Shown: positions 5,785 to 50,800, numbered from the whole stretch's first letter. The stretch: DNA of 62,106 nt, filler included, from Kipferlia bialata (GCA_003568945.1; 3 parts of 3 records of this genome joined end to end with filler, not necessarily neighbours in it), one strand, 5' to 3'. Translations and numbers: made by a program. Notes: a model not told the origin generated them from the letters alone.

Positions 5785-6111
5785 GTCCACTCAGCACTCT
5801 AGTGAATAGAGTCTCTGTCTAGAGGATAGATGGAAGAGTGTATTGATAGTGTCTGGACTGATGTCTGTGTGTTCCATGTATGTTCCAGCTGAACTGACGT
5901 GTTCTGTCTGTCTCACTGTATAAATATGTTGTTCGTGTAGTGGTGGTGCTAAAAGAGTGCTTAAACGCAAGAGACTTACACACATACATCTATTCACACA
6001 GTGTCACATACACACCCAAAGTTAAACACACACACACTGTCATCAACACACTCCAGTTGTCATACACACTCCTCTCTCTCTCTCTCTCTGTCTCTCTGTT
6101 TCTCTCTCTCC

Positions 6112-9100
6112 CTACATCTCATAGAGGTCCATGACACCCTCCCCCTCCTCCATGTCGAAGTTCTTGCTGTGGCCAGCTGGGGTGAGGGCATCACTATGTA
6201 TAATGACAAGACAAATATGTGTGTGAGATCCAATATGTATATTTATGCATTTATAGTAATAGTGTATACAACGACGTACCACTGAGAACTCCATGTCCTA
6301 AACACATTACACAAGCCATTCTCATTTCCCACAAACATTCTTGAATGATGTCCCACATAACATTACAATACTCCAAATGAGTCATGTATATACATCCACG
6401 TACCCACTGAGAACTCGACGTCCTCCTCCTCCCCTGGGGTGTGCCAGGTCTGGATGATGTACTGGCCTGGGGTCAGGTATAGTAAAGGGTACATGTACAG
6501 TGAAGTGTATATATTCATTGCATATATATACTGATGACTCATACTTAGTCTGGATGATGTACTGGCCTGCGGTCAGGAGCGGAAATACTATTGAGAATAT
6601 CTATTAATGTGTGTGTCTAATTCCTCATATAGTATATATATTATATGTACATACAAGCATGAAGTCTAACCTGGCTCAGCCCAGAATGTGTGACCGAGCG
6701 GTAGGATCGTATGTACTACAATACTGTACTACTGATAGGGACGTACAATATATGTATTAATTTACAATAGTATACTACATGCTTACCTGGCTCAGCCCAG
6801 AATGTGACCGAGGGGTAGGGAGAGTCCTCCTGGGACTCATAGACCTCCTCCTGACAGTGAGATATATATATGTGTGTGGGATATGCATATATAGAGAGGG
6901 GGAGAGTAACGGCGTACACCTCCTAACAGTGAGGGAGAGATAGACATAGAGACGATATACACATACAGACACATATATATATATGATTGTGTGAGAGAGC
7001 GATACAATGAGTCTTAGCTTTGATATATAACAAGTGTTAGATATATTGTGTGTGGGAGAAACGGATTCAACCAGCAATATACTCATATATTTAGGGAAAG
7101 AGAGAACTTAGCCTTAGAGAGAGTGGACTCACCGCAGACTCGAAGAAGTCTCCATCCCTGACCTCGTATGCCTCCTCCTCGTCCTTGACAACCTGGGTAT
7201 TAGCATATGTATATACGTATGTGAGGGTATGAAGCATGTATGTATGCCTCTTGAATACAACCTGAGGTGGGAGGATAACATACAAATATCCACATATGCA
7301 TGTTTGTGGACATGAACGGTAGTGTTCTCACAACATTACGAGAGAGGAAACGGGTGTATATATGTATAAAAATATACGTCCATGAACGTATGTCTATACA
7401 TATATTACTGGCCCTGATGAGACATGCAGTACTCGTACTGTTACTGCATGCATATACATATATATATATTGTAGTATGTGTGTAATGTGTCTATGTTATT
7501 ACTATACTGTGATACTCACCCTGATGCAGTACTGGTACTCGTCGTCCTCCACCTGGGGGTAAGGCAAGGCGGAAAGGAGAGAGTAGCATACATATAGAAA
7601 GTGAGTGAGAGAGAGAGCGAGAGACAGAGAGTGAGACGTACCATATCTCCCTGGTATGCAGCTGCCACCATGATCTCCTCTCCCTCCTCCACCACAAAGG
7701 AGTACTGCACACTGTTCTCATAGTCTCCCTCGCCCATGTTGTCCTGAGGGGTCAGGCATACTGGAACTACGTATTAATAATATATACACACTATATATGA
7801 ATACAAGAGAGTGTATGTATGTATGTACAAGAGAGTGTATGTGAGGCTCTCACTCTCTCTCTATATATATATATGTATGTATACATATATACATGTATAT
7901 GAGTATACCTCTGAGGTGCATGCCATTGCTGTCTCCCTGCTCCCAGAGGGGATCCGTCTGAACTTGATGGTCTTGCTGGCCTTGCACTTGGGGGGTTAGG
8001 ATATTAGTTAGTATACACTATAGGAAGACACCAGTTAGATGTATGGGGAATATCAGTATATTATCAATATTAGCGTGTGGTCTTGTCTAAATCATGGGGG
8101 AATAACGCGTAGCTACATGAAGAGTAAAAGTATTCTACAGTGTAAATTTCTTGTGGGTATACTGTATTTATATATATATCGATAAATATACAGTTACCTG
8201 CAGCATGAGGGGCTTACCGCACTGGTCGTCATGGCCCACGCAGATGAGGTACCTGGGGGTGGGAGGATATATACATAATACATATATAGAATATATATTA
8301 TTTATTATATTATTTATAGAATATATACATATATATTGTATACTACTATAGTACTCTCATCTATACTACTATAGTATACATGTATGTATTGGGAAGGTGT
8401 CCACATAGGTAGATAAGAACTCAAACACTCTCGCAGAAGACAAGGAGACACTCACTTTCCAGCCTCGAGGCTAGTCTCCAGCCAGTAGCCAGAGTGGTAG
8501 GAGCCCATGTAGCCCTGGGGTAAGGATCGTGTTAAGATACTTGCATATATTGAGAGAGACAGTTTAGTAGTATTGTATGTATATATGGAGGAGTGATAGG
8601 AGTACACACACATATATACCCATACATATATAGATCTAGAGTACACACCTCTGGCATCTCTGCCTCCTCGTCCTCCTCCATCACTGACGACATGCATATT
8701 GATACCTTAGTATAACCTGCGTACATATACTTCACCTATATATCTCTGCGTATTATACCTATATGTATTAGAATATATTATTACCCACCTCTGGCATCTC
8801 TGCCTCCTCGTCCTCCTCCATCATAGATACGACATACATATACTGATACCATACTTGACCATATGTATATATAAATGAATACATATACTCAAGCATATAT
8901 ACCTCTGGCATTTCTGCCTCCTCGTCCTCCTCCATCATCGTCAGGAACTCAGTCCCGTCCATCCTGCGCATGTGGCTGCCCTTGAGACCATCAGGCACAG
9001 AGAAGACTGGGGTTAATTAGATACATTACACGGTATATACTAACTACTATATATATGTATACTAATATATATATATATATATATATGACTGCCCTTAAGA

Positions 9101-12100
9101 CCATCAGGCACAAAAAGGACTGGGTAAGTAAGAAGACATGAAGAGAGTGGAGTTAACTATGGTAATATATGAATTTATATATATGAAGTATTATGTATAT
9201 ATATATGTGTGTGTGTGTGTGAGTGTGAGAGAGTATATAGAGAGAGAGGTTACACGTACTGTTGTACCAGGGTGCATAGCTCTCCTGCTCGTCCTCCACC
9301 CCATCCCCGTCCAGGTCCTGTGGCTTGTCACACACCCTGATCTTGAGGTCGGTGTCCTCATCCAGGACAAAGGAGTACTGGGGGTGAGGAAACAAATCAA
9401 ACATACCTATAATACTAATCATTACTAGGAGCGTGTATAGTATAGGGAGTGTATAGCGAGTCTACCTGGGGTGCGTTGTGTGGGAAGAGGGGTGCCGACT
9501 CCATGTCCTCTGGGACATCTGGCATGGCAACCACAACCTCACTCAGCACTGAGGGTGAGGACATGGATATGGATAGAGTACTAAGCTTATCAGTATGATA
9601 TATCTGATGTATTTAGGTCCACTATATACTATGTATGCTACATATTCTAAACTAGTACTATATGGAGTACCTGGGTAGTACGACCCGTCCTCGTCCCCCT
9701 CCATGCCCTCGAGCTCCTCGGCATCATAGTCATCCCCATAGCAGAACTCCTCCTGGGGTGGGTAGATGGTATATCGTACACATCCAGAGACAAAAAATAT
9801 ATATAGTTCATAATATACAGTATCTATACAGTATTATATGAATATGTAACATTGGGGTCATAGTCATCACCGTAGCAGAACTCCTCCTGGGGTGGGTATA
9901 CAGTTCATGGTATGAACAACATATAGAAAATTTGTCCAGATATATGTATGTGTTATACCTCGAGAGGCTCCTTGAGAGAGCTTGGCACAGGGTAGGGGAG
10001 GTCGGTGGGGGGCCACACGCCATCGGGTCTAGGGTAAGACAACTAGCGAACCATCCATTCAATACCCCACTATAAACACAAATGAATTAGCTCTTGGACC
10101 CACCTAGGGAATGCCTTGAACCAGTCAAAGACCACCATAACAAACCATAAGTAGACCAATAGACAATACTGGTATACATGTATATTCTAACCTTTGATAT
10201 GCCTTGAACCACCCAATAGTGTCATATATTACACATTAGTACAATATACAACGTATGCACCCACCTAGGGAATGCCTAGGACCACCCAACGACCGTTATC
10301 AGTGTAAGTAGCAGAGTGTCTCTTTATGATTACACATATATATAGGTAATACAGGTATTCAGAATGTACCCACCTTGGGAATGCCTTGAACCACCCAAAG
10401 ACAGTTAGTGGTAATAGTAGTATAATATATATGAATACACATAAATGAGTAACAAAGATATACCAATATACATATACCTTGGGAATGCCTTGAACCACCC
10501 AAAGAACTGGCTGAATGCGGTGTGGGGGAGGAAGAAGGTGCCGTCCTGAGGGTCAGCATAAGTATCAGGAACCAGTACAGGTATCAGTACAGGGATATGT
10601 GTTATTGTAAATACTGTATATACTATGATGACATCCATACATCGTCTGTGAACTGGTGTCTGGTGCACTCCTGCACAAAGGGGAACTGGGTCCACTCGGC
10701 AGAGCCTATTGGGTAAGAAACCAGAGGCTGTATTCAGATACCATATTCATACTCTATACCACGTTAAACTCACCGTCACTCCAGGGTCCCTTCCACTCCC
10801 CGTGGGAGCCCCAGGTGTTCCTGGGGGTGAGATGTATTGACCGTACATGTTAAGATCACACTATCAAGTTCACACTATCAAAGTATATAACAATTATATA
10901 CTATCAGTAATCGTCTGTATGATAGAGATAGCCATAGGTAGTCACAGTATAGTGTATACGTATAGTCTGTAAATATACCTAAGCTTGACCAACTTGATGT
11001 CCAGACAGTAGCAATATACTATATATGTACTATACGAATATGTATATAGCATTAATGTATATATACATACTGTACCTGAGCTTGACCAGCTTGATGCCTG
11101 TCTCCTGGTGGTGGAAGGTGCCTGGGGTGAAGAGACAACACACATATACATTGAGATATACATGAAAATAGTAAAATATTATTCCTTACCTAGTGCTGTG
11201 TACTCCTGGTCATCTAGATATACCAATGTATACACTGGTACGAATACAGTATATACTATTATAGATATAGTATGTACCTAGTGCCGTGTACTCCTGGTCT
11301 GACAGCAGGCCATAAGCACTGATATAGATAGTAGTCTATATACTAGTATATATATATAGTAGTGTATATACCTAGTGCCGTGTACTCCTGGTCTTCTATA
11401 TACTATACTATCTATATACTATACTATCTATATACTATACTATACACCAGATACTGCTATACATGTACCTAGTGCCGTGTACTCCTGGTCTGGCAGCAGT
11501 CCATGCATGGACACACCCTCATCCTCACACCCGGTGGAGCTGGGGGGTGAGTATAGAGTAAGAGTAACACAATACCCATATTAGAACACCTATATATACT
11601 ACTATATATTTGCATAACAAATATAGTAACGTACGCTGAGACCCACGCCCCCCTTGAGAACAGCCTATAAATACCAATTCTTATATATATATATATATAT
11701 ATATAGCTATATATATAGCTGTATATACCATGCTATATGTACTGTATGAGTCTAATACTAGTGTATACACGTACGCTGAGACCCATGCCCCCCTTGAGAA
11801 TAGGACCCCCAGCCAGTTGAAGAGGGTGTCGGCAGTACCCTCCTCCAGGTGGGTGTAGCACCTGGCGCCTGGTGTTAGAGTATATATATATACATACCTT
11901 ATATATACAAACTATTTTTCTTTACATATATATATATGTGTGTGTATGTATGTATGTATACCTGTGAGCACAGAGATTGGCTCCATGCCGATGTTGAGAC
12001 CAAATGAGAGACCTTGCCAGGACCCATTGATCTGGGGGTGAGGATAGTATGGTATATAGAGTATACATATACAGTAGATGTATAGTAGGAGAGAGATAGT

Positions 12101-36359: not shown

Positions 36360-39300
36360 CCATACCTGTCACTACTGTGTCCACTGGCGTCTCTCTCCCT
36401 CATGGCCGAGGGCAGCACTCCATCGTGCCACTCTCTCTCTCCATCTCTCTCTCCCTTGGGTGTCTCAGTGGGATCAGCCTCCCCGTCTGGCATCTCAGTC
36501 TCTCTCTCTCCCTCAGTGCCAGAGTGGGTGGTCACGGTGTGGCCAAAGAGTCTGTCGAGGCCTGGGATTAGACACAAAATATAGTGATGTATTAGATATA
36601 AGAGGCCAAACAAGGAAATATGATTGAAACGCAATATATACAGCATGGCCTACATCTAGTGTATCAGCTACCATAAATACTATGTGGTATATATGTATTA
36701 TAAGCATGATGTATACATGTTCACACCTATGGCTCCTGGGTACAGGTGGGTCACGTGCTGGCTGAGGGACGAAGAGCTCTCATTGAGCTCATCCTTCACC
36801 TACTCGTGAGTACGGCACGGGGGCATATCGCACAAAATAATCTCAGAAGCATAAGACTGTACTATCCACTCACCTTGAGACCGAAGGGGTTGGACGGGGC
36901 CTGCGGCTTCTCGTTCTGCTTGTAGAGGGCGTCCAGACACTTCCACACAGAGGTCTTTCCACATCCAGGTGGTCCTACGATGATTACACCACTGGAGTAC
37001 GTGAGAAGTCTGTGGAGCCTCGAGACTGCCTGGGCAAAGGGCTGTGATTAGCATATTGGCGCAAGTATATATCGGGTTAGAGTATATATGGTACTGACCT
37101 CGCTGAACTGGTGACCGCACAGAGGTAGAGAGAGAGGGTGTGTCTCCTCGGGTGCAGAGGATACAGTGGAGGGGGCCATGGAGAGGGCATGGGAGCGGAG
37201 TCCGTCTGAGATGAGATACACTCAGAGAAACTAGACTAACACTGTATCTAAAGAATGGACGTGATATATATGAATGTACCTTCTCCATCTCCGTCCCCGT
37301 CTCCGTCTCTCTCCTCGTCCCTGATATCTGCCAGGGCCTCGGCCAGAGAGGTGTGCAGGGCAACGACACTGTGTATAAGAGATATTGTCAATTGGAGATA
37401 CAAATGTGTGAGTAGGAGATGTGTGGAGGGCAACAACACTGAGAATTAGAAGTAGTATTACTGCCTATAGTTCCAAATATACAGTTGCTCAGAGACTATG
37501 TGAAAGACCGACCCTCACCTTGCGTCACAGACTGTCTGGATGCTTGTCTATATTACATCGTACAATTCTACTAATCTAAGGGTTGAAACTGTGGAGAAAT
37601 AGCTAGGAGTGAAGACAGTGACCCTCACCTGGCGTCACAGACTGTCTGGATGCTTGTCAGCCATACTAATAGATGAACTAAATGAGTACTACCCTAATAC
37701 AATACTGAAACATGGGGCTTAACTTAGTATAATAGAGACCTCACCTAGCGTCACACACTGTCTGGATGCTTGTCCTGAGGGTGGCTCCGTACTGGCCATA
37801 CTCCTCCTCAGTGTCATTGGTGATGGGCATGCCAGATCTGGGAGTAAGAGTATATATATATATAATTATACAACAGTATATACTATATATCCTCCTCAGT
37901 GTCATTGGTGATGGGCATACCAGATCTGGGAGTAAGAGTATATACATATATCATTATACAACTGTATATACAAGTAGAGATTCTTCATCATAAATACTTG
38001 TGGGTAAATGTTGACTGTTCAGTGTACCTAGGAAGCTCTGATCTGAGGAGACCCTTGAGAAGGTCCTCCTCTCTCTCCTTACCCCTTAGGGTGGGAGTGA
38101 GGACATGGAGAATACCAGCCTGCAATGAGAATACATAATAATAATAGAGAGTGGAATAGTCGCTGAGAAAGAATCATACCTTCAAGGACCTAGTCTCGTA
38201 CTCGAGGGTCTCGTCCTTATCAACACTGCCGGAGGGAAGGCCTCTGGGGGGTGAGATTACACATCCAAATATCTGGGTATAATATATAGTCTCAAAGGTT
38301 ATGATTACAACTGGGAGAAGAAATGAGAGAGTCACATAGAAATACTTGGATATAATGAAATACATAATGAAAGGATACCTGGCCGTGTTGGCTGCAGTCT
38401 CAGGGGCCACCTCTGTCTCCATGTAGTGGGCAGCCTGGGGTAAGCATACACACACATACCACAAGGGCACTTCAACTACTATAGAGAGCACGAAGTAAGT
38501 ACCTGCTCCACTATCCTCTGGATCAGGAACATGCTTGGGTACAGGGCATCAGATAGTGCCACTGCACTGTCAGCAGAGGAGGAGTACCCCTCCCTCTCGA
38601 GGGCCCTGACTCTGCCTAGAGGGTAAGGGTCAATACTCCAATTACAACATACCCAAGAATAGTCGTAGTATTATATACGACAGTGATATATGAATCACAA
38701 TACAATATACCAATGCATACCTGTCTCCACCGACTTGTGCAGGAGTGTCAGTGTCTTGACAGCATTGGAATAATTTTATATACATATATATACACATATA
38801 TGGGTGTTTACTAATATAGATACCTGTCTTCACCGACTTGTGCAGCAGGGTGAGTGTCTTGACAGCATTGGAATATAGAATATATATATACACACATATG
38901 TATACATATACATATATATATACCTGTCTCTACCGACTTGTGCAGCAGTGTCAGCGTCTTGACAACAGGGGCAGCCAGTTCCTCAGCGCACACATATCCC
39001 TGGGTATTAGTCAATCCACAAGAAAATACAATACTTCCAATAATTACCCAATAATATTTGATCCATAAATATTTTCTGTTAACAACTCTTACCTTGCTGA
39101 CGAGGATTCCCTCTAGAATCACTGCCGTGTCTGGCACTTCCATCGAGACAGGTCTGAACACACCAAGGAGGTGGGAGGGCAGACCCTGCACTGAAGATGC
39201 CTTAGAGTCTGAGGCAGAGGCAGATGCAGAGAGAGAGAAGGGCAGGGTGGTTGCGGTGATGCCGACTGTTGGCTTCAGAGCACACTCTCTGTTGCCAATG

Positions 39301-42300
39301 AGTACACTGGAGGCATGGATCCTGAAGATAAGACAGACAGAGAAAGATGAGGTACTATAATCCAACTATGACTGACATCATAGCATATGTATACAAACAA
39401 CTAACCTCAGTGCCTTCTGGACTGCCTCTACCACCCCAGCCACCACGCATATAGTGTCAGCGGATAGCATCTGGACGTTGTCTAGGACTCCTACTGCACC
39501 GAGCATGCAGATACCACTGAATAGACGGTATACACTGCCAGCATCCATGGAAGGGGAGCAGTCTGAAGGATGAGAAGAAGAATAGAAATACCCACAAGAA
39601 ATATGTGGGATATGGAAAGATAATACGTACCGAATACTACACACATCCTGCCGAGCATGGCTGATATGTCCTTGATGGTCTCAGTCTTGCCACACGAGAC
39701 AGGGCCAGAGAGCATGGTGCCAACACTAGAGGTAAATAATGATGATAATATATATCTAGCCAGAGAGAAGGGTGTCGATACTAGAGGTAAGGATACATAT
39801 GGAGGAGGAATAGAAGGATACCTGTTACTGAACCCTAGGCACAGCGAGTGTATGCACCGCTGTGTGAGGGGTGTTGACACGAGTCTCTGCCTGTGGCCTG
39901 TGAACTCCCAAGAGTAGGAGATGGGGGAGGAAGTGCCTGGGGGTTAGAACGCTACACGATAAGTTCTTCGTGTAGTATCGTAATCTTGAGTCACATACCT
40001 GACTGTTCCACTGTGACTTCCCCCCTCTGTGCATCGTATGCAAACCTAGGGCAGTCCAACCAAACAGCAGAGACGTCGGCAACACCTGAAAGGTGAGAAA
40101 CACTTCACATAACTAGATAAGAGGTCAGACGTAGATGTAAATATACACCTGACTCGGCAGCAATGACGGCCTTGGCCAGAATCTCTCTCCACTCCATCTC
40201 CATGAGAATCACGCTCTCGAGGAGGTTCCTCTCCCTTGGACTCAGGTCCTTCTGGGCAGGCTTGTCACGACGGTGCCTGCATTAGAGAAAGTCTATGTTA
40301 CGCCTGACACTTTCATACCTATATCTAATAGGATATAGAGTAGTGATAGGGTGTTTAGTGTATAGTGTATATGATGTATATTATGCTAGGTACCTAGACT
40401 GAGTCCTGCTTGTTACGGTATCCAGGACTTCAGTATATAATATAGTGTATATAGTATATATATAGTATATACATATATAGTACCTAGACTGCGTCCTGCT
40501 TGTCATGGTGTCCAGGGTCTCTGGCTCAGCAGAGGAAGGGGTGCAGAGGGAGCACAGAGAGTCGATCCTGACCTGCTGCTCTCTGAAAGGTGAGACAAAC
40601 ATGGAAAACCAATCAATAAAGCATTTTGAAGAGGATAAATAACGAGTATGTATACTAACCTTAGCTCCCTGACGAGATATGCCTTTGATAAATGTAAGAA
40701 TACTATATATATCATTGACGTACCTCAGCTCCCTGACGAGGTATGCCTTTGGCGACTGGGTCCCTCCCCCTCCAACGATGGCACCCACTCCGCTGTGGAA
40801 CGCAATGGAACGGGCTAGGAACACAATCTTAACAGTTAGAGTATGATGAGCATAAAACTAGAACAACAGAAAACTTGCTAAAATATGATACAATATCACA
40901 GTGCACAGATTGCGAGTCTATGGAAAATGGTACCTGACTAGGATAGTTGAATATCCACTCCGTGTAGGGCGTGGCCGTGTAGTTGGAGAGTGCGATCTGC
41001 AGTGTCTGGTGCAGGGTGTCCCTCACAGAGCCCTCGAGGGAGGTCAGCCAGTGACCCAGGGCGCCCCTGAATATCAGAGAATACAGGAGAGAAATATTAA
41101 TATCCAAAGATACAGTGAGAGAGAGAGAGAGAAAGAGAGAGATCTACCTGAGCCTGAGTGGCATCATCAGGGTCAGCTTCTCAGATAGGGGAGCATCCTC
41201 TGGGCCAGAGTGCACAGACAGGATGGTGGTGGGGATGCTGTCGCGCTTGGCCTAGGATGAGAAGAAATCAATGAATATGTTCAGTACATTTGATTGGATA
41301 CATCGCTCTCGGTGAGGATCAAGACATTCCCTGAATAACGTGTCAATCTACAATTGTGCAATATAGACGAACCGTGGAGGGTCTGCTTCTGGCACTGCTC
41401 TTGCCCTTGCCCCTGGCAGTGCTGGCCTTGACAGCCTCGAAAGATAGGGAGGAGATGGCCTAAAGTGAGTAACTCAAGTATGCTACACAGATGGAAAGGA
41501 ACATGTAAGAGATGCAAAGACCCGGATGCATCAAGAAAATGAACACCCACCTGGTACATGGATCTCATGTATGGCACCACCACCCTGGGGTCACGCCCTG
41601 CCACAACCAGGTCGAGAAGCTGGTCGTCCGACAGGAAGAAGAACCTATGAGTGAGTAGAACACGATCATACCAAAAGGAAAATGGTGTGACAAGTATATC
41701 TTGGCCAATACCTGGGGAAAGCAAGTCTCTCTGTATCCAGGTAGCCAACCACCGCGCGTCTGACCCCCTCTAGGGTCTGTAACCACCCAGTCAGACGGTT
41801 GAGGTGGGAGGCGGTGGAGTATGTAGTAAGCCTAGAGTGAGCGGGTAAATGACAATAGTTGTGTCAGTACAGTTACATTTATGAGAAGAGACGGTTGAGA
41901 TGGGAGGCGGTGGAGTATGTAGTGAGCCTGGGGTAAGCGGTAGATGACATGTACGCAAAGACTCAGAAGGCACAATATGTCAAGTACAACATACTAAGTA
42001 TATGAAACTGAAAGAGTTAACGAATTAGATACCTTGGACCTGTGACTGCCCAGTGCAGGAATGACTGGAACATACATATATATATATATACATGTATACA
42101 ATATCAATATATGATATATATATATATATATGTGAATACACACCTTGGGTCTGTGACTGCCCCGTGCATGAATGACTGGAACTTGACATCCACGGCCTGG
42201 AATGTCTTGGAGACCTAGAGATCAGAACATGTAGTATTTAAGAAGTGAAGAGAATTTATACTCACAAATATAGTACTCCAGCCTGGAACGTCTTGGAGAC

Positions 42301-45300
42301 CTGGAGGGGTGAGCATAGAACAGTATCACTAAACACTACTTTTGGTATTCTTGGAACTATGCACGATAAAGAGTATGACGATACTGTACCTTTGGCAGCT
42401 GCCTCTTGCTGTTCCAATCATCGACTATATATACATATATACCTTTGGCATCATCAGCAATATATATATATACATACCTTAGGCAGCTGCCTCTGGATGT
42501 TGCTGTTCCCGAGTACAGTGGCTGCATGCTTCCAGAGGGTCTGGACCTGGACCCAGGTGGAGAAGACCTGGCATAAGACTATAGAGAGAAGACTAACACT
42601 AAACTAACACTCTTGATATGATAATATTGAGAGATTGGATATTTGTGTCCATACCTCCATGCTGAACCCGACTCTCTTGAGCTCCTGGACCAGTCTCTTG
42701 ACAACGGGGGCGTCTCTGTCTCTGTCTCTCTCCCTTTCTAGCTCAGAGAGACCCTCGCCATCTGCGGCAGCATCCTTCATGCCCTTCTCGGCCTCCTAAC
42801 GATCAGGAAACTACGCGAAATATAAGAATACTACGCGGAAATGTATATAGTTACAATAACCACCAATGCGTGTTATCAATAACCGATATGGATATATCTA
42901 TGGGTACATACCTGGTTCCGGTCGGCCTTTGCCCTGGCATACCGGGCCTGGAGGTCAGATAGAGGTACAGGAAGTACACTATCACGAATTTTAAGTAGAG
43001 TACCCACTCACCGTATTGTCAAGTAGATACAACATAATGACATGCTCATGAACATAATAGTTACCTTAAGCGCAGTGAGGTCTGTCTTGGCTGTCTCGAG
43101 TACTCTGTACACAGTGTCAGTCTTGGACAGAAGCTGGATGCGCACTGAAGACGACTCGTCTGGGGCCATGATAACCTTTGCAATTAGAAAGGGACCATTC
43201 ATTGAGAAGAACTATAAGAACTTGTCACTCTAAACACATGTACTGGAAAACATACCTCCACAGATGCAAGTGTGTCCAGCACTCTCTCCAGTACAGTGCC
43301 AAGCTGCAACTCAGAGTCGGCCTGAGGTGAGATATATAGGACAAGTAGAACAGTCAAAAGAGAACATATGGAAGTTAAACCATTAATAGTACAGGTATTT
43401 TGGATATTTGTCCACGTAAGGCACGTACCTGCTTGATCAGTGCTTTCACCAGTGACAGCTTTGAGTAGATGCCTCTGCCTATCAATCTGGCCACGGAGAC
43501 AACGTCAGAGTCAAACTGGGGATGAGGTGAAAGAGAACCAACAATTATGCAAACAAGTAGAATAATGTTGGGAAAGTAGGGTGGAAAAGCTTGGGTACGT
43601 ACATCGATTCCCTCGTTGAAGGCATGTCTCTCCATGGCACGGACATGGGCCTGGGAGTGAGAGAGGGTCAGACACTCTTATACAATATATATTGTATAAG
43701 TGAAAAGAAACGAAACATGGGCCTGGGAGTGAGTGATATTATTACTATTGCGTACTTACTCTACAATACAATACTTATAGAAGTACTAGTACACACCTGT
43801 ATCTTCTGGAAGGGTGACAGCTGCAGCGCGGGCTGCTTGTTGGCAGACTGCCTCTCACGACCCCTAGAGGTCAGCGGATCCATACCAAAACACATGAGAA
43901 GAGCAGAATGTCTGCTATAGACTGGGTTGTAGGGAAGTTATTACCTAGCCGTGAGCTGTCCCCTGCTTGATATCCTTGATCTAGCTGTAGCAATTGCCCT
44001 GAGACTGTTGAGAGCAGCGTTCTCAGGCACCAAGTCACGGGCATTGCCCTAGGAGTAAGAACCGAGAATTCTTGAGAAACACTGTTTTAGTGTATTAGTC
44101 CAACTGAAATATCCCATGTACCTCGCTAGGCCTCACAAGGTCGAACAGTTCTTCGCCCTCCTTGATCATCTGGGCCTGAAGGGTTAGAGGATATTAAATA
44201 TTTACAACAATAGACCTTCTCACTCACAGAATCACTATAGACGTGGAATGACATGTAGGAGTCATAACTGTGAAGGGAAACATGGCACAGCACCTTGGTA
44301 ATTGCCAATATCCCCTCCAGCAGTTCCCAGTGTCTGGGACTGAAGGCATCGGAGACAAGGGAGGAGACTGAAGGTGAGGCATATGTATCCAAGAATAAAT
44401 TTGGAAGTAATATGAATGACGTACCCAGCTGGACAATCCTACCCAGTGTCTGACACTCACTGTAGGCCTCGGAGACAAGCTGAGGGTTAGAGGTATACTC
44501 ATATGGGAAGCATTGACACGAACATAGAGATAAGATACATCATGAATAAATGGGGAAACGGTAACCAATAGTAGAAGAAAACAGTTGTATCCATACATAG
44601 ATTGGTACCTTTGGCGTTGTTGTGCTCTGAACATGTGGGTGTACACATGGGTTGTAGGCAGAGAGCACACTGGTGAAACGGCTCTGTGGGGTAAGTAACA
44701 CAACATAAACAAAAGTATAAATGAATTTCAAGATAACGGCCACAAAGGCAAGTGATAATGAAATTAAATGGATACTTACCTTGTGTGCGTCCATCTCTCT
44801 AATGATGGATGAGAATGTGGTCAGCTGAACTGGGAAGTCAATCTCGGACAGGGGCTGGAACCTGTAGGGTAAGAATCCATTAATTATTGGAGTTGTCAAC
44901 GAAACCTATAAAACTGTAAGAGTAAATGCTGAAGAATTTGGAACACACCTAATGCTGTCATTGAGTTCGTGCCACTGAAGTACACTCTGCAGTGCCCTGA
45001 TCCTCAGGTTGGAACCTTGGGCAGAGGCATCACACACAAAGAAGGCCTGAGGATGAGATATAGCATGTATGTAGAGTTATATATACTGATGTATTTAGAG
45101 AGATATTTTTATTGCATTATACACATAAGTCTAACTAGTGAGACAATAATGAAGAAAAATAGAGAATACCTTTGTGTGTATCCCACCCCCCTCCACGTTG
45201 TACTCGTCAAACCCAAAGAGACCAAACATGCGCTCCATCTCGGCCTCCTTTCCTAGGTGTTAAGCGAACACCGAAGAGAGAAAGATAGAGAGAGAGAGAG

Positions 45301-47796
45301 TAAGAGAGAGAGAGATTGATTGTTACTCCAATACATGTGCTTAAGAATCCAAAGTCGATGTATGATATGTATCAGTGGAACTTACTTGTGAGCACTGCAT
45401 TGCGGCCCATGAGTTCCTTCAGCTGGACAATGGCAGCCGGGATAGGTACTCCGACCTGGTATTAGTATTAGTATATCAAATCCAACAAGTATACCCAGAA
45501 AGTCCAATATATACATGTCAGATTAGTATACAACGGCAGCGGGGATGGGAACACCAACCTGGTACTAGATATATAAATATGTATTCAGTGTATACTATAT
45601 ACATGTGGATACATACCTGGGACTCCTCGTCCTCAGAGGCCTCTCCCTCGATGTAGCTCTCTGCCTCTGCCTCTGCATCAGTATCTCCCTCACTGACCTC
45701 GGAATCCTCCTCCACTACAGATACAGGCTCAGCTCCCTCAGTCTCGCCCTGGGGTAAGAGAGATTCATATCCTATGAAAGAATAATATAGTACTCACACA
45801 CATACATTAATGTATATATACATATGATTGATAGTCTTTACCTTGGCTGGCTTGACTGGGGATGGTGGCAGAGACGCAGGGGTTCCAGCATACCCCTGAG
45901 GGTGAGAGAAGAGAGAAGAGATAATAGTTCTTCCACTTAATTCCAATATGAGGAAATATGCCTGCATAAGCCCCTTTGCCATGACTGCCTTCAAGATGGC
46001 CAGGGACTCCCTCTCAACCTCAGTGTACAGCTCAGTCAGCTCGTCGGTAAACTGGGAGTTAGTCATGATAGAGACACAAAGACACAGACTATTTCTTTTC
46101 CATATTGACCACCTAAACACAACTTTATGAGGGAAATAGTGTTATATACCTGGTATCTGATCGATCCTCTCTTCCTGTCAAAGGCATTCTTCAGGGTGCG
46201 GAGCTGGTCAAGGCCCTGAGGGTGAGAGCACATATTTTCATAGGTATATATATATATATACACACTATTGAATCAATTCCCAGCACGTAGAGTAGTAACT
46301 ATATATATATGATTACACATGCTATTTCTCCCTGTACCTGCTGTGCCTGCTGGAGTGTGGCCATGGCCAGTATATATATAGGAGCATATATATTGTGTAT
46401 ATATGTCCATATACCCATATATATATACTAAGTGTATGGTTATACCTACTGTGCCTGCTGCAGTGTGGCCACTGCCAGTGAAACAATATGTTCATATGTA
46501 TATTAAGAACCATTACACTATGAATATATATATATATATATATATGTATATATGTACTATCCTGTACCTGCTGTGCCTGCTGCAGTGTGGCCACTGCCAG
46601 GGTGGGGTGGGGCAGTTCCATCCCATGCTCGCCAAGGACCTGGAGGGTAAGGCTACACGAGAATAAAATATACTCAGTGTTAGATGAATGAAGTGATATC
46701 TGACACATGATACCTCCTGTAGCTCGCTGAGCAGTATGGCGTCCTTCTCATAGCCAACAAGGGCCTCGAAGGCCTAAGGGGTGAGATATACAAATATACA
46801 ATGCTGTATAGAGTGGTTAACACATATCTCAAGTGTATATCATAGCCGACAAGGGCCTCGAATGCCTAAGGGGTGAGATAGATATGATTAGATAGAGTGT
46901 AGAGCACTTGGAAGATCGATACCATCAATGCATTGCTATCATACCTCCTGAGCCAGCTGGAAGTATGCGACTGCCTCGGACAGAGAGATGGGATCCCTGG
47001 GGGTTAGTCACAAAGTTATAATATAATAAGAACAGTTACTTGATAATAATATATCGAAGCAGGATGGAGTCCCTGAAGGATAGTAAATTCCCACTTTCAC
47101 GAATGATAGAATAACTCGACACAAATATTATAGAATGAATGAAAATATCCAAGCAGAGTACGTACTTTCCAAGTCCCTGGATGAACTCCCTTGTCTCATC
47201 CCCCAGACTCTGTGCTATAGATAGAGTGTACTGCGGCAGCACATCGTGTAGCAGGAAGAGCTGCCTCTTGATGGTGGGGAAGAGAGCCTGCTGGTGAGCG
47301 GACCGGTAAATAGAGAATATCCAGTATCGATATGGAGCTATTATAAGAGGTGATGTTGGAAGAGAACCATGTCAGTTGTCCATTCACATGCTAACAGGGG
47401 ACACACGGGGAATACAACGAAGGTATATACCAATTGGTATGCTGGTTGATTGTCCGCTTACCTGGTAGAGAGGGGTGCTGTTGACAAGGAAACATCCAAT
47501 CTGCCTGGGGTGAAATTGTGAGAGTGAGACTATAACAACACAATTCTGAGAAAACAAGCTATTAGAAAGTTATAAGAAGTATTATAGCGTATTAATATTA
47601 ATCATTTGTGGTAATGGAGTATTATATACATGCCTGATTGAGTGTGTCTGCAGCACCAGCTCGCACTGCTTGCCCAGGGTGTCGAAGCAGTACCGGAAGC
47701 GCTCTGCACCTATCCGATAAGTCACAAACCAACAATAAAGAACAACCAAACAGAAACAGTCAAGTACAATTCATATGTCACGGAATTGATAAATTA

Positions 47797-47832
<36 letters not shown>

Positions 47833-50800
47833 TACTAAGTGTGTACCTGGCTTCCCCCCTGCCTTGATGTCCTCCTCTAGGGTGAAGACATCGGCCCTCT
47901 CACTCTCCTGGGGATAAGACAACAAATGAGAAAATTGGCATATAGGAACGATAGTGTGCCCAAACCATCGAGTGGTAATTTGAATGACAACCAGAGAGAC
48001 AAGCAATTGCAGAATAAGCAAAATCGGAACAGTCCATATTTGGTATTTACATACCTGAGATGCGAGTGACTGCAGAAGGGGGCTGAACCCGGCCACGTAC
48101 TCCTGTATCCTGTCTGAGCAGTATCCAACGGCACCTAGGACATCCTCAATGCCCTAATCATTAGAAGCAAGAGAATGACTTCATTCATATTCAATAGTTA
48201 CCATACAATATAGATCAAATATGAAATAGAAACAGTATCGGGAGGGAGTTTTAACCAACCTTCAGATAGAGCTCGTTCTGGAGCAGGATTGTCCTGATTC
48301 TAGGACCAATGCCCTTCTTGCCTGATTGTCAGATATATAGAGGTACACATACCCTATACTCACATATACTACTATTATTGCATTGTTCTCTATTACTAAC
48401 CTAGCACGAGAGTGTCTGTGGCTGTTGGAGTGTGTCACCAGGTAGATACATATAGCCATTGTATAAGTATGTGTATATTAGACATCTTTACATATGCATA
48501 CCTAGTAGTAGATGTCTGTGGCTGTTTGAGTGTGTCACCAGGTAGGTGGCAAGCTGGGGGAACGAAGTAACCCTGGGGTGAGTATATCATTCATATATAC
48601 ACATACATTAGCAGCATTGTATAAAGGCATCAACAACTATACTATATATTTAGTAAATAATACTAACCTAGGTGCCCTGTCCACTGCAGCTGCAAAGTCT
48701 GCAAAGATGTCCTCGATCCACCTGGCAGTGAGAACAGACACCATTGACCAATGTCAGTTATAAAACCATTTCTTGTATTGGATGTTGGAGCGGCAAAATC
48801 GTGAATAGTGACGGTCAACACTGAGTGAGTTACCTGTGGAAGTCGTCTCTGGACGGGACCATAAAGACACCACGCTGGAGTGAGAGGAACTGAATTACAA
48901 CAAGAAATGTGATAAGTCACGTAAAGACCTATAATGCTACGTACCTCCGTAATCTCGAGTCTCACGTTGAACAGAGGTGCAGTTGGGAGACGGTTGGGGA
49001 AGCAGATCAGGTTGTAGCTGGACATAAGTGAACGCTAATAATAGTGAATAGTAACACAATATACAGTGTAGTCCATACCCGCAGAATGGCCTGGCCAGTG
49101 CTGTCTCCTGGGTGGCATCATGCTCATTGGTGCCAAGCATGGCCCTGGGGTCAGTATACAAAACCATAGAATGAATACATATATATACATATACTCTAAT
49201 AGTATAGTATCAATATATGCTCATTGGTGTCCAGCATGGCCCTGGGGTTAGTATATATATTATACACATATAATAGCTATAATATATGAAGAGTAATACT
49301 GTTCAGATATGATATGTTCATTTTTGCCAAGCATGGCCCTGGGATCAGTATACACACATACTCTCAACCTCTAACACTGTCTCTCCCTATGATTGAATAA
49401 TACTAGGCCTAGTGCCTAGTGATGACGTCCCCCTTGTCCGGTGCCAGTGTACTAATCACACATATATATACAGTAATTATAGTATAGTATCTAGTATACT
49501 CATGTATATATATATATATGTGTGTGTGTATGTATATATACATATACTACCAGTACCTAGTGATGACGTCCCCCTTGTCCGGTGCCAGTGACAGAGACCC
49601 CTCCTCGGTCTTGACCTTCTCACGATAGGCAGGGAGCAGTTCTAGGGTAAGTATACGACCATTCTAATTCACATATATAATTATATACATCCTGAATCAG
49701 TGTTGACCTTCTCACGATAGGCAGGGAGAAGTTCTGATGTCAGTACATGAATACGCATATACTAACCATGATACTATCAGTATTTGGGCCATACCTGCTT
49801 GCTCGACCAGTCTCTCACTGGCCACGTCTGAGAGAGAGCATGGGAGGAGAGACCGGTAGTGGTCAGACTTCTCCTTGTCCTCGGGAGTGATGGCCTCTGT
49901 GCCACAGACTAGACGGAGCATAGCCTGAAGTTAGGAGTAATATATATACATATACATAGAGAAAGAGAGAGAGAGAGAGGTGATGGCCTCTGTGCCACAC
50001 ACTAGACGGAGCATGGCATAACGTAAGAAAGTAAGTATATATCCTCACATATTCAGTAATATACCTCATTTGCAGCCAGTGCAATATCCCCCAGTGACTC
50101 CACACTGTAGTAGTCAACCAGGCGCACAAGGTACTTGAGTCTGGTGTTAGAGCTGTGAACGTCTGGTATCCGTGTTTACGAGTGTAATGAACGCTGGTTG
50201 TGACTAAGAATCTGAGTCTGGTGGGAATACTGATGTCTCAAGGTATATTCATACATATGATATTTTCACTTACCTGTGCAGGTTGTAAGTGCCCTCCTCT
50301 GAGATGCTCTTGCCCTTGCCAAACAGGGCGTTGCTCAGCATTCTGTGGGTCAATAATATACAGAGTCAATAACATAAAGAGGAGGTTCGTCTCCAAAGAA
50401 CGAGTTCAGCGAACGGAATTGTACCTAGTTCTACCGTGTAGCTGTGCGTTCTCCATGATGGCATGAGCCTTGGCACTGGCGCCCTAAGGGTCAGAGGATA
50501 CCAACACACAGAAATACGAATACCATATTTTGTATACGCATTCACATACATACGGCAACTATTACTGACAACAATACAATCACTATCTATAATATGTCAC
50601 GTAGGCACATGTATGTCCCACCTGACTTCCAAACACGGTGGCACTCTGCACATACTAGGTACAATACATTGCGTATGTATATTGCTACTCTCTACATACT
50701 ATCTATATTATTATATATATAATATACCTGGCTTCCAAACATGGTGGCACTCTGCACGTACTCGGCAGTGGCACGGCAGACCTGGGGGGTGAGTCACAAA

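What the first reader, a model, noticed from the sequence alone, without database searches (positions are those of the whole stretch)
37511..38970. Echoes differ from the real exon, and from each other, mainly at synonymous sites
Seen: TSIQTVCDA has GTG..GCT (real), GTC..GCC (37629) and GTC..GCA (37519), i.e. three Ala codons and no replacement. VKTLTLLHKSVET echoes show three silent changes (38721) and four silent plus one replacement (38824). These two share the same upstream breakpoint (ttccaatgct), yet differ from each other at three silent sites and one replacement site. The same trend appears at 11633 (2 silent), 13693 (2), 60834 (2), 61491 (2) and 61626 (3). Counter-examples exist (42031, 46444, 6278). 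Known: neutral intronic DNA should not respect codon position. Inference: echoes are templated from functional divergent alleles (capture or repeated gene conversion), were themselves used as the exon end, or still are.
Basis: partly seen in the sequence, partly recalled or inferred. Interest (0 to 1): 0.85.

Follow-up and report, generated by a model that had tools for sequence, protein, structure and literature searches.

The report
Exon-end echoes copied from diverged alleles
About a quarter of the introns in this microbial eukaryote's DNA carry a short, unused copy of the neighbouring exon end with its own splice site, and these copies differ from the working exon at silent positions about twice as strongly as simple decay allows, which likely means they came from different working versions (alleles) of the gene and would record hidden genetic exchange.

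Summary
82 echoes (15-56 nt, same strand, anchored on the splice site) lie in 58 of 223 introns. They differ from the working exon at 118 silent and 89 replacement sites. The silent rate per site is 4.3-6.7 times the replacement rate; a neutral echo beside a selected exon, with or without in-cis conversion, gives at most about 2. Echo codons obey the genome's codon usage (59 more used, 59 less). Echo splice sites keep GT (44 of 50) or AG (28 of 32) but differ from the real site, and the intron behind them is mostly unalignable. A spliced RNA contig skips the echoes in 33342-39562, and some echoes carry stops or frameshifts, so they are not in the main mRNA. One DNA contig holds three echoes unbroken. 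Best reading (0.6): junction duplications whose exon part and splice site were taken or refreshed from another functional allele, about 10% diverged at silent sites. The donor haplotype is not seen. The scan noted similar echoes earlier in sea urchin DNA, where plain decay was said to suffice.

The parts
37745..37837 (-). working dynein heavy-chain exon ending TSIQTVCDA
   Evidence: open model; exon lengths between RNA anchors 39092 and 37041 sum to the 690 nt of RNA contig record 9
37629..37658 (-). donor echo 1 (30 nt, 2 silent, donor GTGAGG kept)
37519..37548 (-). donor echo 2 (30 nt, same breakpoint position, 2 silent, third Ala codon, donor GTGAGG kept)
37659..37744 (-). intron stub (86 nt) between the real donor and echo 1; unrelated to the next stub 37549-37628 (80 nt)
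   Evidence: pair score 14, reached by 97.7% of unrelated stub pairs
37280..37368 (-). working exon starting (S)VVALHTSLAEAL
37890..37925 (-). acceptor echo of exon 37745-37837 (36 nt, 1 silent; intron side alike for 46 nt, looks like a young same-allele duplicate)
38924..38999 (-). working exon ending VKTLTLLHKSVET
38824..38867 (-). donor echo (4 silent + 1 replacement in the 41-nt core; GT kept)
38721..38764 (-). donor echo (3 silent in the 41-nt core; shares its upstream breakpoint with 38824-38867; GT kept; followed by a complete 105-nt intron)
26294..52123 (-). dynein heavy-chain gene part, 117 exons, 11,791 nt without stop; 31 echoes in 22 of 116 introns
   Evidence: (Pfam AAA_6, AAA_5)
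6111..14381 (-). calpain-like gene; echoes in 16 of 27 introns, arrays of up to four (10104-10401)
   Evidence: (Peptidase_C2, E 0.0017, below cutoff)
17550..26034 (-). amino-acid-permease / cation-chloride-cotransporter-like gene; echoes in 10 of 40 introns
   Evidence: (AA_permease, E 0.00028, below cutoff); the cotransporter label is recalled from motifs
58273..61819 (-). gene of unknown family; echoes in 7 of 10 introns

Best explanation
The echoes are unused duplicates of an exon end plus its splice site, spaced about 100 nt apart, whose exon part, splice site and adjoining intron were likely taken from, or refreshed by, a different working allele of the same gene during recombination. 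Shown: echoes are local, same-strand, anchored on the splice site and 15-56 nt long. The main mRNA skips them where RNA was laid, and they decay (stops, frameshifts, pN about 0.035). They carry a near-uniform silent divergence (pS about 0.17) in preferred codons, and their splice sites are consensus-quality but different from the real ones. Inferred steps: (1) a break or slip in an intron joins an intron stub to a point 15-56 nt inside the exon, creating the junction; events that copy a whole exon or leave both splice sites are removed by selection. (2) Exon ends are the main homology between diverged alleles, so homologs pair in or out of register at exon end and echo; crossover or conversion swaps the working exon end, or the echo with its splice site and following intron, for another allele's. 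Out-of-register exchange also builds arrays that share one breakpoint. (3) The spliceosome uses the outermost donor and acceptor, so the inner sites stay silent. (4) About 0.10 of the silent divergence (pS minus twice pN) is inherited allelic difference, and the rest is decay after capture. Whether the allele is captured at birth or swapped in later is unresolved; shared breakpoints favour later exchange.
For: Silent multiplier 4.26 (95% 3.2-5.7) untrimmed, 5.45 and 6.73 trimmed, under a free 12-rate mutation model; p against 2 is 2e-7 or smaller. Cluster bootstrap of pN/pS 0.11-0.34, with 0 of 5000 replicates at 0.5 or above in each of three trims. Fixed window of 12 nt from the splice site: 52 silent, 28 replacement in 73 echoes, ratio 0.19. 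Fourfold sites 89 of 406 against zerofold 74 of 1594. The same detector on simulated null data gives 0.47-0.58; on simulated allelic data (pi 0.12) it gives 0.19-0.24, as observed (parameters chosen to match). A two-site model with any in-cis conversion never exceeds 1.94 over the grid. Codon usage at 118 silent differences: echo codon more used 59, less used 59, mean +0.08+-0.13 against -0.59 for the null. Silent counts are not overdispersed (chi2 63, 80 df) and replacement counts are (133, p=2e-4); the 42 echoes with no replacement have pS 0.174. Core dinucleotide kept in 44 of 50 donors and 28 of 32 acceptors; flank scores are close to real sites and far above background GT/AG (p 3e-12 and 3e-15); differing bases are consensus-favoured (p 0.002 and 0.02). 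The acceptor flank is more alike than the donor flank (0.46 vs 0.17, p 5.5e-4), matching where the splice signal lies. Intron-part score has median 18, which needs about 0.4-0.5 substitutions per site, against 63-71 expected from the echo's own decay. 8 of 11 arrays share an echo length within 1 nt (0.098 per random pair), yet only 1 of 18 stub pairs passes the 5% null. Silent-site diversity of 0.09-0.20 is documented in a eukaryote (PMC4576712, passages).
Against: No second haplotype was seen: no 'other letters' in DNA or RNA contigs over 32500-40430 and one unbranched 5.7-kb DNA contig (contigs drop variants), so the donor alleles must be past or in other individuals. Intron divergence (0.4 or more) is 3-4 times the inferred allelic silent divergence (about 0.10) and needs long persistence, fast intron turnover or strong codon constraint, none measured. 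The lack of overdispersion in silent counts needs very free recombination; a simple coalescent would overdisperse. Echo-versus-echo pairs (23 silent, 27 replacement) do not reject the null (p=0.18). The 9 weaker echoes give 9 silent and 10 replacement, ratio about 0.40. Positions 21-30 from the splice site give ratio 0.40, p=0.37. Under an extreme mutation model (kappa 4, GC sites 3x) the non-dynein set alone is not significant (p=0.15). No gradient of replacements along the echo, which refresh from the splice-site side might give. Silent divergence does not track intron-part similarity (rho 0.01). One window, one haplotype; gene models outside 32500-40430 rest on open frames, not RNA.
Confidence: 0.6

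Rival explanations
1. Ordinary in-cis tandem duplication of a splice junction: the echo decays neutrally while only the working exon is selected, perhaps with gene conversion between echo and its own exon, and AT-rich intron bodies churn fast.
For: Period median 100 nt and strict adjacency. A few echoes keep intron-side identity for 22-46 nt, e.g. 37890, 60115, 13489. Stops occur at the neutral rate (2 seen, 2.8 expected). Echo-echo pairs and the weak set fit. An earlier AI note explains sea-urchin echoes this way (e1-9861148, untested here).
Against: Predicts a multiplier of at most about 2; observed 4.3-6.7. Predicts less-used codons in echoes, not seen. Predicts alignable intron parts and random decay of echo splice sites, not seen.
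Confidence: 0.1
2. Error-prone local re-synthesis makes the new working copy with about 10% errors plus slipped AT-rich filler; selection keeps only events with silent errors and a usable splice site, and the echo is the displaced original.
For: Explains uniform silent divergence independent of decay, unrelated stubs, and higher pS in outer array members (0.187 against 0.103; 14 and 11 echoes) without a second haplotype.
Against: Random errors would leave the working exon with rarer codons, but usage is symmetric. Real splice sites beside echoes are as strong as or stronger than the echo's and the average. No mutator signature in the spectrum. The order at 38721/38824 needs two reversions. No repair polymerase with that error rate is known to me (recalled).
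Confidence: 0.09
3. Echoes are conserved at the DNA level, blind to codon position, for an unknown function (for example as splice-site decoys), so they preserve an old exon state while the working exon drifts at silent sites.
For: Fits symmetric codon usage, kept splice sites, shared breakpoints and diverged stubs.
Against: Needs about 75-80% constraint on every base of 82 unrelated echoes; any need to match the exon would constrain the exon as well. In arrays, changes private to echoes (13 silent, 17 replacement) outnumber those private to the exon (4 and 1). About three quarters of introns have no detected echo.
Confidence: 0.07
4. Echoes were or are translated in place: relics of duplicated, mutually exclusive exons, or exon ends still used in some transcripts.
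For: Would directly give silent bias, preferred codons and intact splice sites.
Against: No whole-exon duplicate in 223 introns; the largest echo covers 70% of its exon, although a long dual-use phase should leave many. The RNA contig has exactly the echo-free length at 8 of 8 anchors and skips a short acceptor echo at the joint 32836-33040. Stops and frameshifts occur. Minor isoforms cannot be excluded with contigs.
Confidence: 0.07
5. Assembly artefact: diverged haplotypes or strains joined in tandem.
For: It would give exactly the allelic signature. The finding's own echoes lie in bins where the DNA run shows little or no cover (a filter drops records). Run X1 may be the source of the window.
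Against: One DNA contig spans 32500-36307 with 0 differences at depth 452 and holds 3 catalogued echoes. X1 holds a share of 1.00 of 643 sampled words of 36500-42500 although about 6% of words there span echo junctions. No separate haplotype contig appears. Stops and frameshifts in echoes are not allele-like.
Confidence: 0.04

Closest known systems
Human F7 intron 7 37-bp VNTR with silent 5' pseudo-sites (PMC1557585; abstract and section list seen)
   Same: Tandem copies spanning an exon-intron boundary; the most upstream donor is used and downstream copies stay silent.
   Different: F7 is one locus with repeats that include identical cryptic sites. Here 58 of 223 introns are affected, on both donor and acceptor sides; the intron part of the unit is unrelated between copies, and the exon part differs in preferred synonymous codons.
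Sea-urchin exon-junction echoes noted earlier in this scan (e1-9861148, e1-7787398; AI notes, unchecked)
   Same: Short dead copies of exon-intron junctions in the adjacent intron, with a silent bias.
   Different: There 43 of 107 differences were silent and said to fit selection on the exon alone. Here 118 of 207 (98 of 157 trimmed) exceed that null, and codon usage and splice-site anatomy point to functional donors.
One-sided invasion / synthesis-dependent repair finished by end joining; unequal crossing-over between direct repeats (recalled; review PMC4888836 seen in a search listing only)
   Same: Gives a piece copied from a homologous template joined by a non-homologous junction, and arrays that share one breakpoint. 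It works like the proposed steps 1 and 2.
   Different: Known mostly from engineered breaks and gene targeting. No template was identified here and no junction microhomology was demonstrated.
Recently gained Daphnia introns linked to double-strand-break repair (PMC4202315; search listing and start of abstract only; flanking short repeats recalled)
   Same: Intron sequence change at a break, with a local direct repeat.
   Different: Those are new introns at new positions with short repeats. Here the exon-exon junction is unchanged, repeats are 15-56 nt plus a splice site, and the old intron grows in steps of about 100 nt.
Hyperdiverse eukaryote populations such as Schizophyllum commune, silent-site diversity 0.09-0.20 (PMC4576712; passages)
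   Same: Shows that allelic silent divergence of the size inferred here (about 0.10) exists.
   Different: Diversity was measured there from 24 genomes; here it is only inferred from duplicates within one haplotype.

Membership tests
in-cis splice-junction tandem duplication (F7 IVS7 type) | copy spans exon end and splice site, adjacent, same strand | tested here: met
   82 kept echoes all within 4 nt of the splice site; only 3 of 88 hits were unanchored; non-adjacent BLAST hits were low-complexity or weak
in-cis splice-junction tandem duplication (F7 IVS7 type) | intron part of the unit is duplicated too and as similar as the echo's age implies | tested here: not met
   only 4 of 50 donor and 6 of 32 acceptor echoes exceed the 95th percentile of unrelated pairs; median 18 against 63-71 simulated
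in-cis splice-junction tandem duplication (F7 IVS7 type) | silent/replacement rate ratio of at most about 2 | tested here: not met
   4.3-6.7; bound checked
in-cis splice-junction tandem duplication (F7 IVS7 type) | duplicate splice sites silent in mRNA | tested here: met
   for the main isoform in 33342-39562 only; minor isoforms not testable with contigs
copy from a diverged functional allele (capture or inter-allelic exchange) | excess of silent differences in normally used codons | tested here: met
copy from a diverged functional allele (capture or inter-allelic exchange) | own splice site of functional quality and different sequence, followed by a full-length intron | tested here: met
   donor-to-acceptor segments median 102 nt against 95 for echo-free introns
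copy from a diverged functional allele (capture or inter-allelic exchange) | donor allele exists in this or another individual | tested here: inconclusive
copy from a diverged functional allele (capture or inter-allelic exchange) | population silent diversity of about 0.1 and recombination | not testable with these tools
   one sample only; no genome held
mutually exclusive duplicated exons | complete exon copies with both splice sites | tested here: not met
   0 of 82; largest echo is 70% of its exon
haplotype concatenation artefact | junction words absent or at low depth; separate haplotype contigs | tested here: not met
   tested directly for 3 echoes and by sampled words for 12; the DNA run may be the window's source; no long reads

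The most novel reading that the evidence does not exclude
This organism swaps whole introns between highly diverged alleles, with exon ends as the only recombination handles, so often that a quarter of its introns carry the scars. A single, apparently one-haplotype genome thus archives pieces of extinct or unsampled alleles and records cryptic sex and about 10% silent-site diversity in a protist, along with a route of wholesale intron-sequence replacement at fixed positions.
Probability: 0.4. Interest if true: 0.88.

Novelty: new variant of a known kind. Interest (0 to 1): 0.72.

Why it matters
If true, allelic diversity and past recombination can be read from one genome by comparing echoes with their exons. 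Scaled from 82 echoes in 62 kb, a whole genome would offer thousands of such pairs (extrapolation). It would give a testable record of outcrossing in a microbial eukaryote whose sample shows one haplotype, a worked mechanism by which intron bodies are replaced and lengthened in steps of about 100 nt while their positions stay fixed, and a natural test of how the spliceosome ignores intact inner splice sites. Practically, echoes mislead gene prediction: my own predictor called many of them exons.

Tried and rejected
No whole genome is held, so the test is limited to 223 introns of 8 hand-curated gene models; the repeat-exon gene at 54700-55950 and the terminal partial exons were left out. Six of 88 hits were dropped before counting (all score 24: echo positions 39774, 30610, 29464, 58605, 836, 15633); three of them re-enter the weak set. 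Two early dynein models had a frame error at one exon, corrected. Reads were laid on 32500-40430 only, so the rest of the window has no RNA or DNA check. DNA cover was missing in several bins between 36740 and 39654, which is no evidence, and 27 joints and 474 pieces were not shown. No RNA holder is listed on record; X2 is a guess, but its contig is spliced at CT..AC joints. Donor and acceptor echoes co-occur in 10 introns (p=0.016 pooled) but this vanishes within genes (p=0.12): rejected as evidence for a two-sided cassette. Breakpoints are not enriched for dinucleotide repeats (p 0.5-0.8). Echo length does not scale with exon length (rho 0.15, p=0.17). The GC-to-AT direction test was uninformative (silent 48 vs 43; replacement 32 vs 29). 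Two homolog searches with single exons found nothing, and the metagenome scan gave only P-loop-level matches, so no second haplotype and no taxon were established. Nine literature searches listed no paper whose title or abstract start describes this pattern; the library lacks most subscription papers and supplements were not read. The idea that echoes are remnants of lost small exons was rejected by eye: no donor follows the acceptor echoes in the alignments.

Full report
Setting. The window is intron-rich eukaryotic DNA. Two N-runs with an internal TTAATTAATTAA (26133-26232, 52342-52441) look like contig joiners (recalled convention). Introns are GT-AG (219 GT and 4 GC donors of 223), with a short pyrimidine-rich acceptor motif that I read as a branch point close to the AG. 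A fused branch point and 3' site is described for diplomonads (PMC6679479, passages), so a metamonad-like protist is a lead from memory; no call established the taxon. No whole genome is held.

Gene models. I trained a small predictor and curated 8 gene models with 223 introns. The finding lies in a minus-strand dynein heavy-chain gene (Pfam AAA_6 and AAA_5): 117 exons, 11,791 nt, no stop. Run X2 holds a 16,024-nt contig spliced at CT..AC joints, with no other letters. Its coordinates match the echo-free model with a constant offset at 8 of 8 anchors from 39562 to 33342, and the eight exons across the finding sum to the expected 690 nt. Contigs cannot show minor isoforms.

Artefact check. Run X1 has one 5,734-nt contig spanning 32500-36307 with 0 differences at depth 452; three catalogued echoes lie inside it. 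X1 holds a share of 1.00 of 643 sampled words of 36500-42500, where about 6% of words span 12 echo junctions. No second haplotype was listed at 85% likeness. Limits: X1 may be the window's source, cover is missing over part of the finding, and there are no long reads.

Observation. Every codon claim checks out. A codon-blind local alignment of each exon end against its adjacent intron gave 88 hits. 82 were kept (score >=26, within 4 nt of the splice site; about 2 expected by chance) and 6 dropped. They lie in 58 of 223 introns: 50 donor echoes and 32 acceptor echoes, 15-56 nt long (median 29.5), at a median period of 100 nt. Echo-free introns have median length 95 (n=164) and echo-bearing ones 244.5 (n=58). 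An anchored scan adds 9 weaker echoes (0-1 expected), bringing the count to 64 introns. A BLAST of all exons against all introns gave 76 adjacent hits and 121 non-adjacent ones that were low-complexity or weak.

Is the silent bias more than expected? The right null is a neutral echo beside an exon that still changes at silent sites; this gives pN/pS 0.5. Gene conversion or pop-out in cis cannot push the silent/replacement ratio above 2 (my derivation; maximum 1.94 on a grid). Observed: 118 silent and 89 replacement differences in 2,466 sites. With codon-blind trimming the counts are 111/77, 98/59 and 89/43, pN/pS 0.24, 0.21 and 0.17, cluster-bootstrap range 0.11-0.34, binomial p 5e-7 or smaller; one echo per cluster gives the same. 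A free 12-rate model gives a multiplier of 4.3-6.7. Running the detector on simulated null data returns 0.47-0.58, so the pipeline does not create the effect. A fixed 12-nt window gives 0.19. Against this: echo-echo pairs (23/27, p=0.18 against the null), the weak set (9/10), positions 21-30 (10/11) and the non-dynein set under an extreme mutation model (p=0.15) are not significant.

(a) At the 118 silent differences the echo codon is the more used one 59 times and the less used one 59 times, mean log2 ratio +0.08+-0.13, against -1.18 for random silent mutation and -0.59 for the null, in a genome with GC3 0.67 and intron GC 0.36. (b) Silent counts are uniform across echoes while replacement counts are overdispersed; echoes without any replacement have pS 0.174. 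(c) Exon-side identity is about 0.82-0.98 per position, then falls at the splice site: donor +4 to +8 0.45 (random pairs 0.32), acceptor -3 to -16 0.60-0.67 (random 0.33-0.45), beyond 16 nt 0.33-0.38 (random 0.29). GT/GC is kept in 44 of 50 and AG in 28 of 32, though neither was required. Echo flanks score near real sites and far above background, and where they differ the echo base tends to be consensus-favoured. The acceptor flank is better kept than the donor flank (p 5.5e-4). (d) Intron parts score like unrelated introns in most cases, which needs about 0.4-0.5 substitutions per site, while the echo itself has decayed by about 0.035. (e) 8 of 11 arrays share an echo length within 1 nt, yet 17 of 18 stub pairs are at null level. 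(f) Echoes decay: three stop codons in untrimmed alignments (two after trimming, 2.8 expected) and 7 gapped alignments, 6 of them not in multiples of three. No echo covers a whole exon.

Mechanism. Points (a)-(d) say that echo and exon diverged while both were under selection as exon ends with working splice sites. Point (f) and the RNA contig say that the echo is now unused. Two functional copies of one exon end with no whole-exon duplicates in cis most simply means two chromosomes: alleles, or less likely homeologs. I therefore infer junction duplications whose two halves come from different alleles, by capture at birth or by later in-register and out-of-register exchange at exon ends; shared breakpoints with unrelated stubs favour later exchange. 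Subtracting decay (pS minus twice pN) leaves about 0.10 inherited silent divergence, within the documented range for a hyperdiverse fungus (PMC4576712, passages). Use of the outermost donor has a precedent in F7 intron 7 (PMC1557585, abstract). If the organism is a fornicate (not shown), the reported loss of classical end joining and of Rad51A, with two Dmc1 paralogs (PMC8516963, passages), would suit homolog-templated repair; this is a lead only. Weak points: no donor haplotype was seen, intron divergence is 3-4 times the inferred silent divergence, and the silent counts are more uniform than a simple coalescent predicts.

Comparison and novelty. Junction duplications are a known kind (F7; earlier AI notes on sea-urchin DNA, unchecked, where the null was said to suffice). 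This case fails two defining features of the plain in-cis kind and meets two of the allelic kind, with the donor unseen. Nine literature searches listed no paper describing it by title or abstract start; the main text of the one intron-rich fornicate genome paper checked has 0 occurrences of 'duplicat', 'ploid' or 'heterozyg' (PMC5874029, passages; supplements not read). Verdict: real, statistically firm in this window, mechanism inferred at 0.6, new variant of a known kind, interest 0.72.

Noticed in passing
window 36270-36318, + strand: Inside a minus-strand dynein intron there is an acceptor-like motif followed by about 30 GC-rich, exon-like bases on the opposite strand; no match to any exon modelled in the window was listed. 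Possibly a captured piece of another gene.
   Followed up: partly
window 30481-30630: An identical copy of an acceptor plus exon start lies on both sides of a 45-nt N gap; it may be a gap-closing artefact or a very young echo. Dropped from the counts.
   Followed up: no
window 54700-55950, + strand: Tandem array of about 150-nt exon-intron units encoding leucine-rich-repeat-like segments, 68-82% alike at DNA level; functional whole-unit duplication, unlike the echoes. The LRR label is recalled from the pattern.
   Followed up: no
window 26133-26232 and 52342-52441: N-runs with an internal TTAATTAATTAA, probably artificial joiners; the dynein gene is cut at both, and its RNA contig extends 759 nt upstream and about 3.5 kb downstream of my model.
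   Followed up: partly
window 26294-52123: The dynein heavy chain is very divergent: single exons of 76 and 149 aa found no homolog in the protein collection, and it carries acidic and Ser-rich insertions in the motor region.
   Followed up: partly
window 6111-14381 and 58273-61819 versus 169-2521 and 52521-54611: Echo density varies strongly by gene: 16 of 27 and 7 of 10 introns, against 1 of 11 and 0 of 10. Echo-rich genes have visibly more TA-repeat-rich introns (by eye).
   Followed up: partly
window 37775-37788, - strand: The working exon has an acceptor-like motif immediately upstream of the point where both 30-nt echoes begin; possibly a breakpoint cue or chance.
   Followed up: no
window 10104-10505: Four donor echoes in one calpain intron; three share a GTGGGT donor that the real site lacks, and the nearest is identical to the exon over 28 nt while its intron part is unrelated.
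   Followed up: yes
window 14900-15800, + strand: 5' part of a predicted membrane-protein gene with several short acceptor- and donor-like repeats upstream of exon 15301 that my models did not cover.
   Followed up: no
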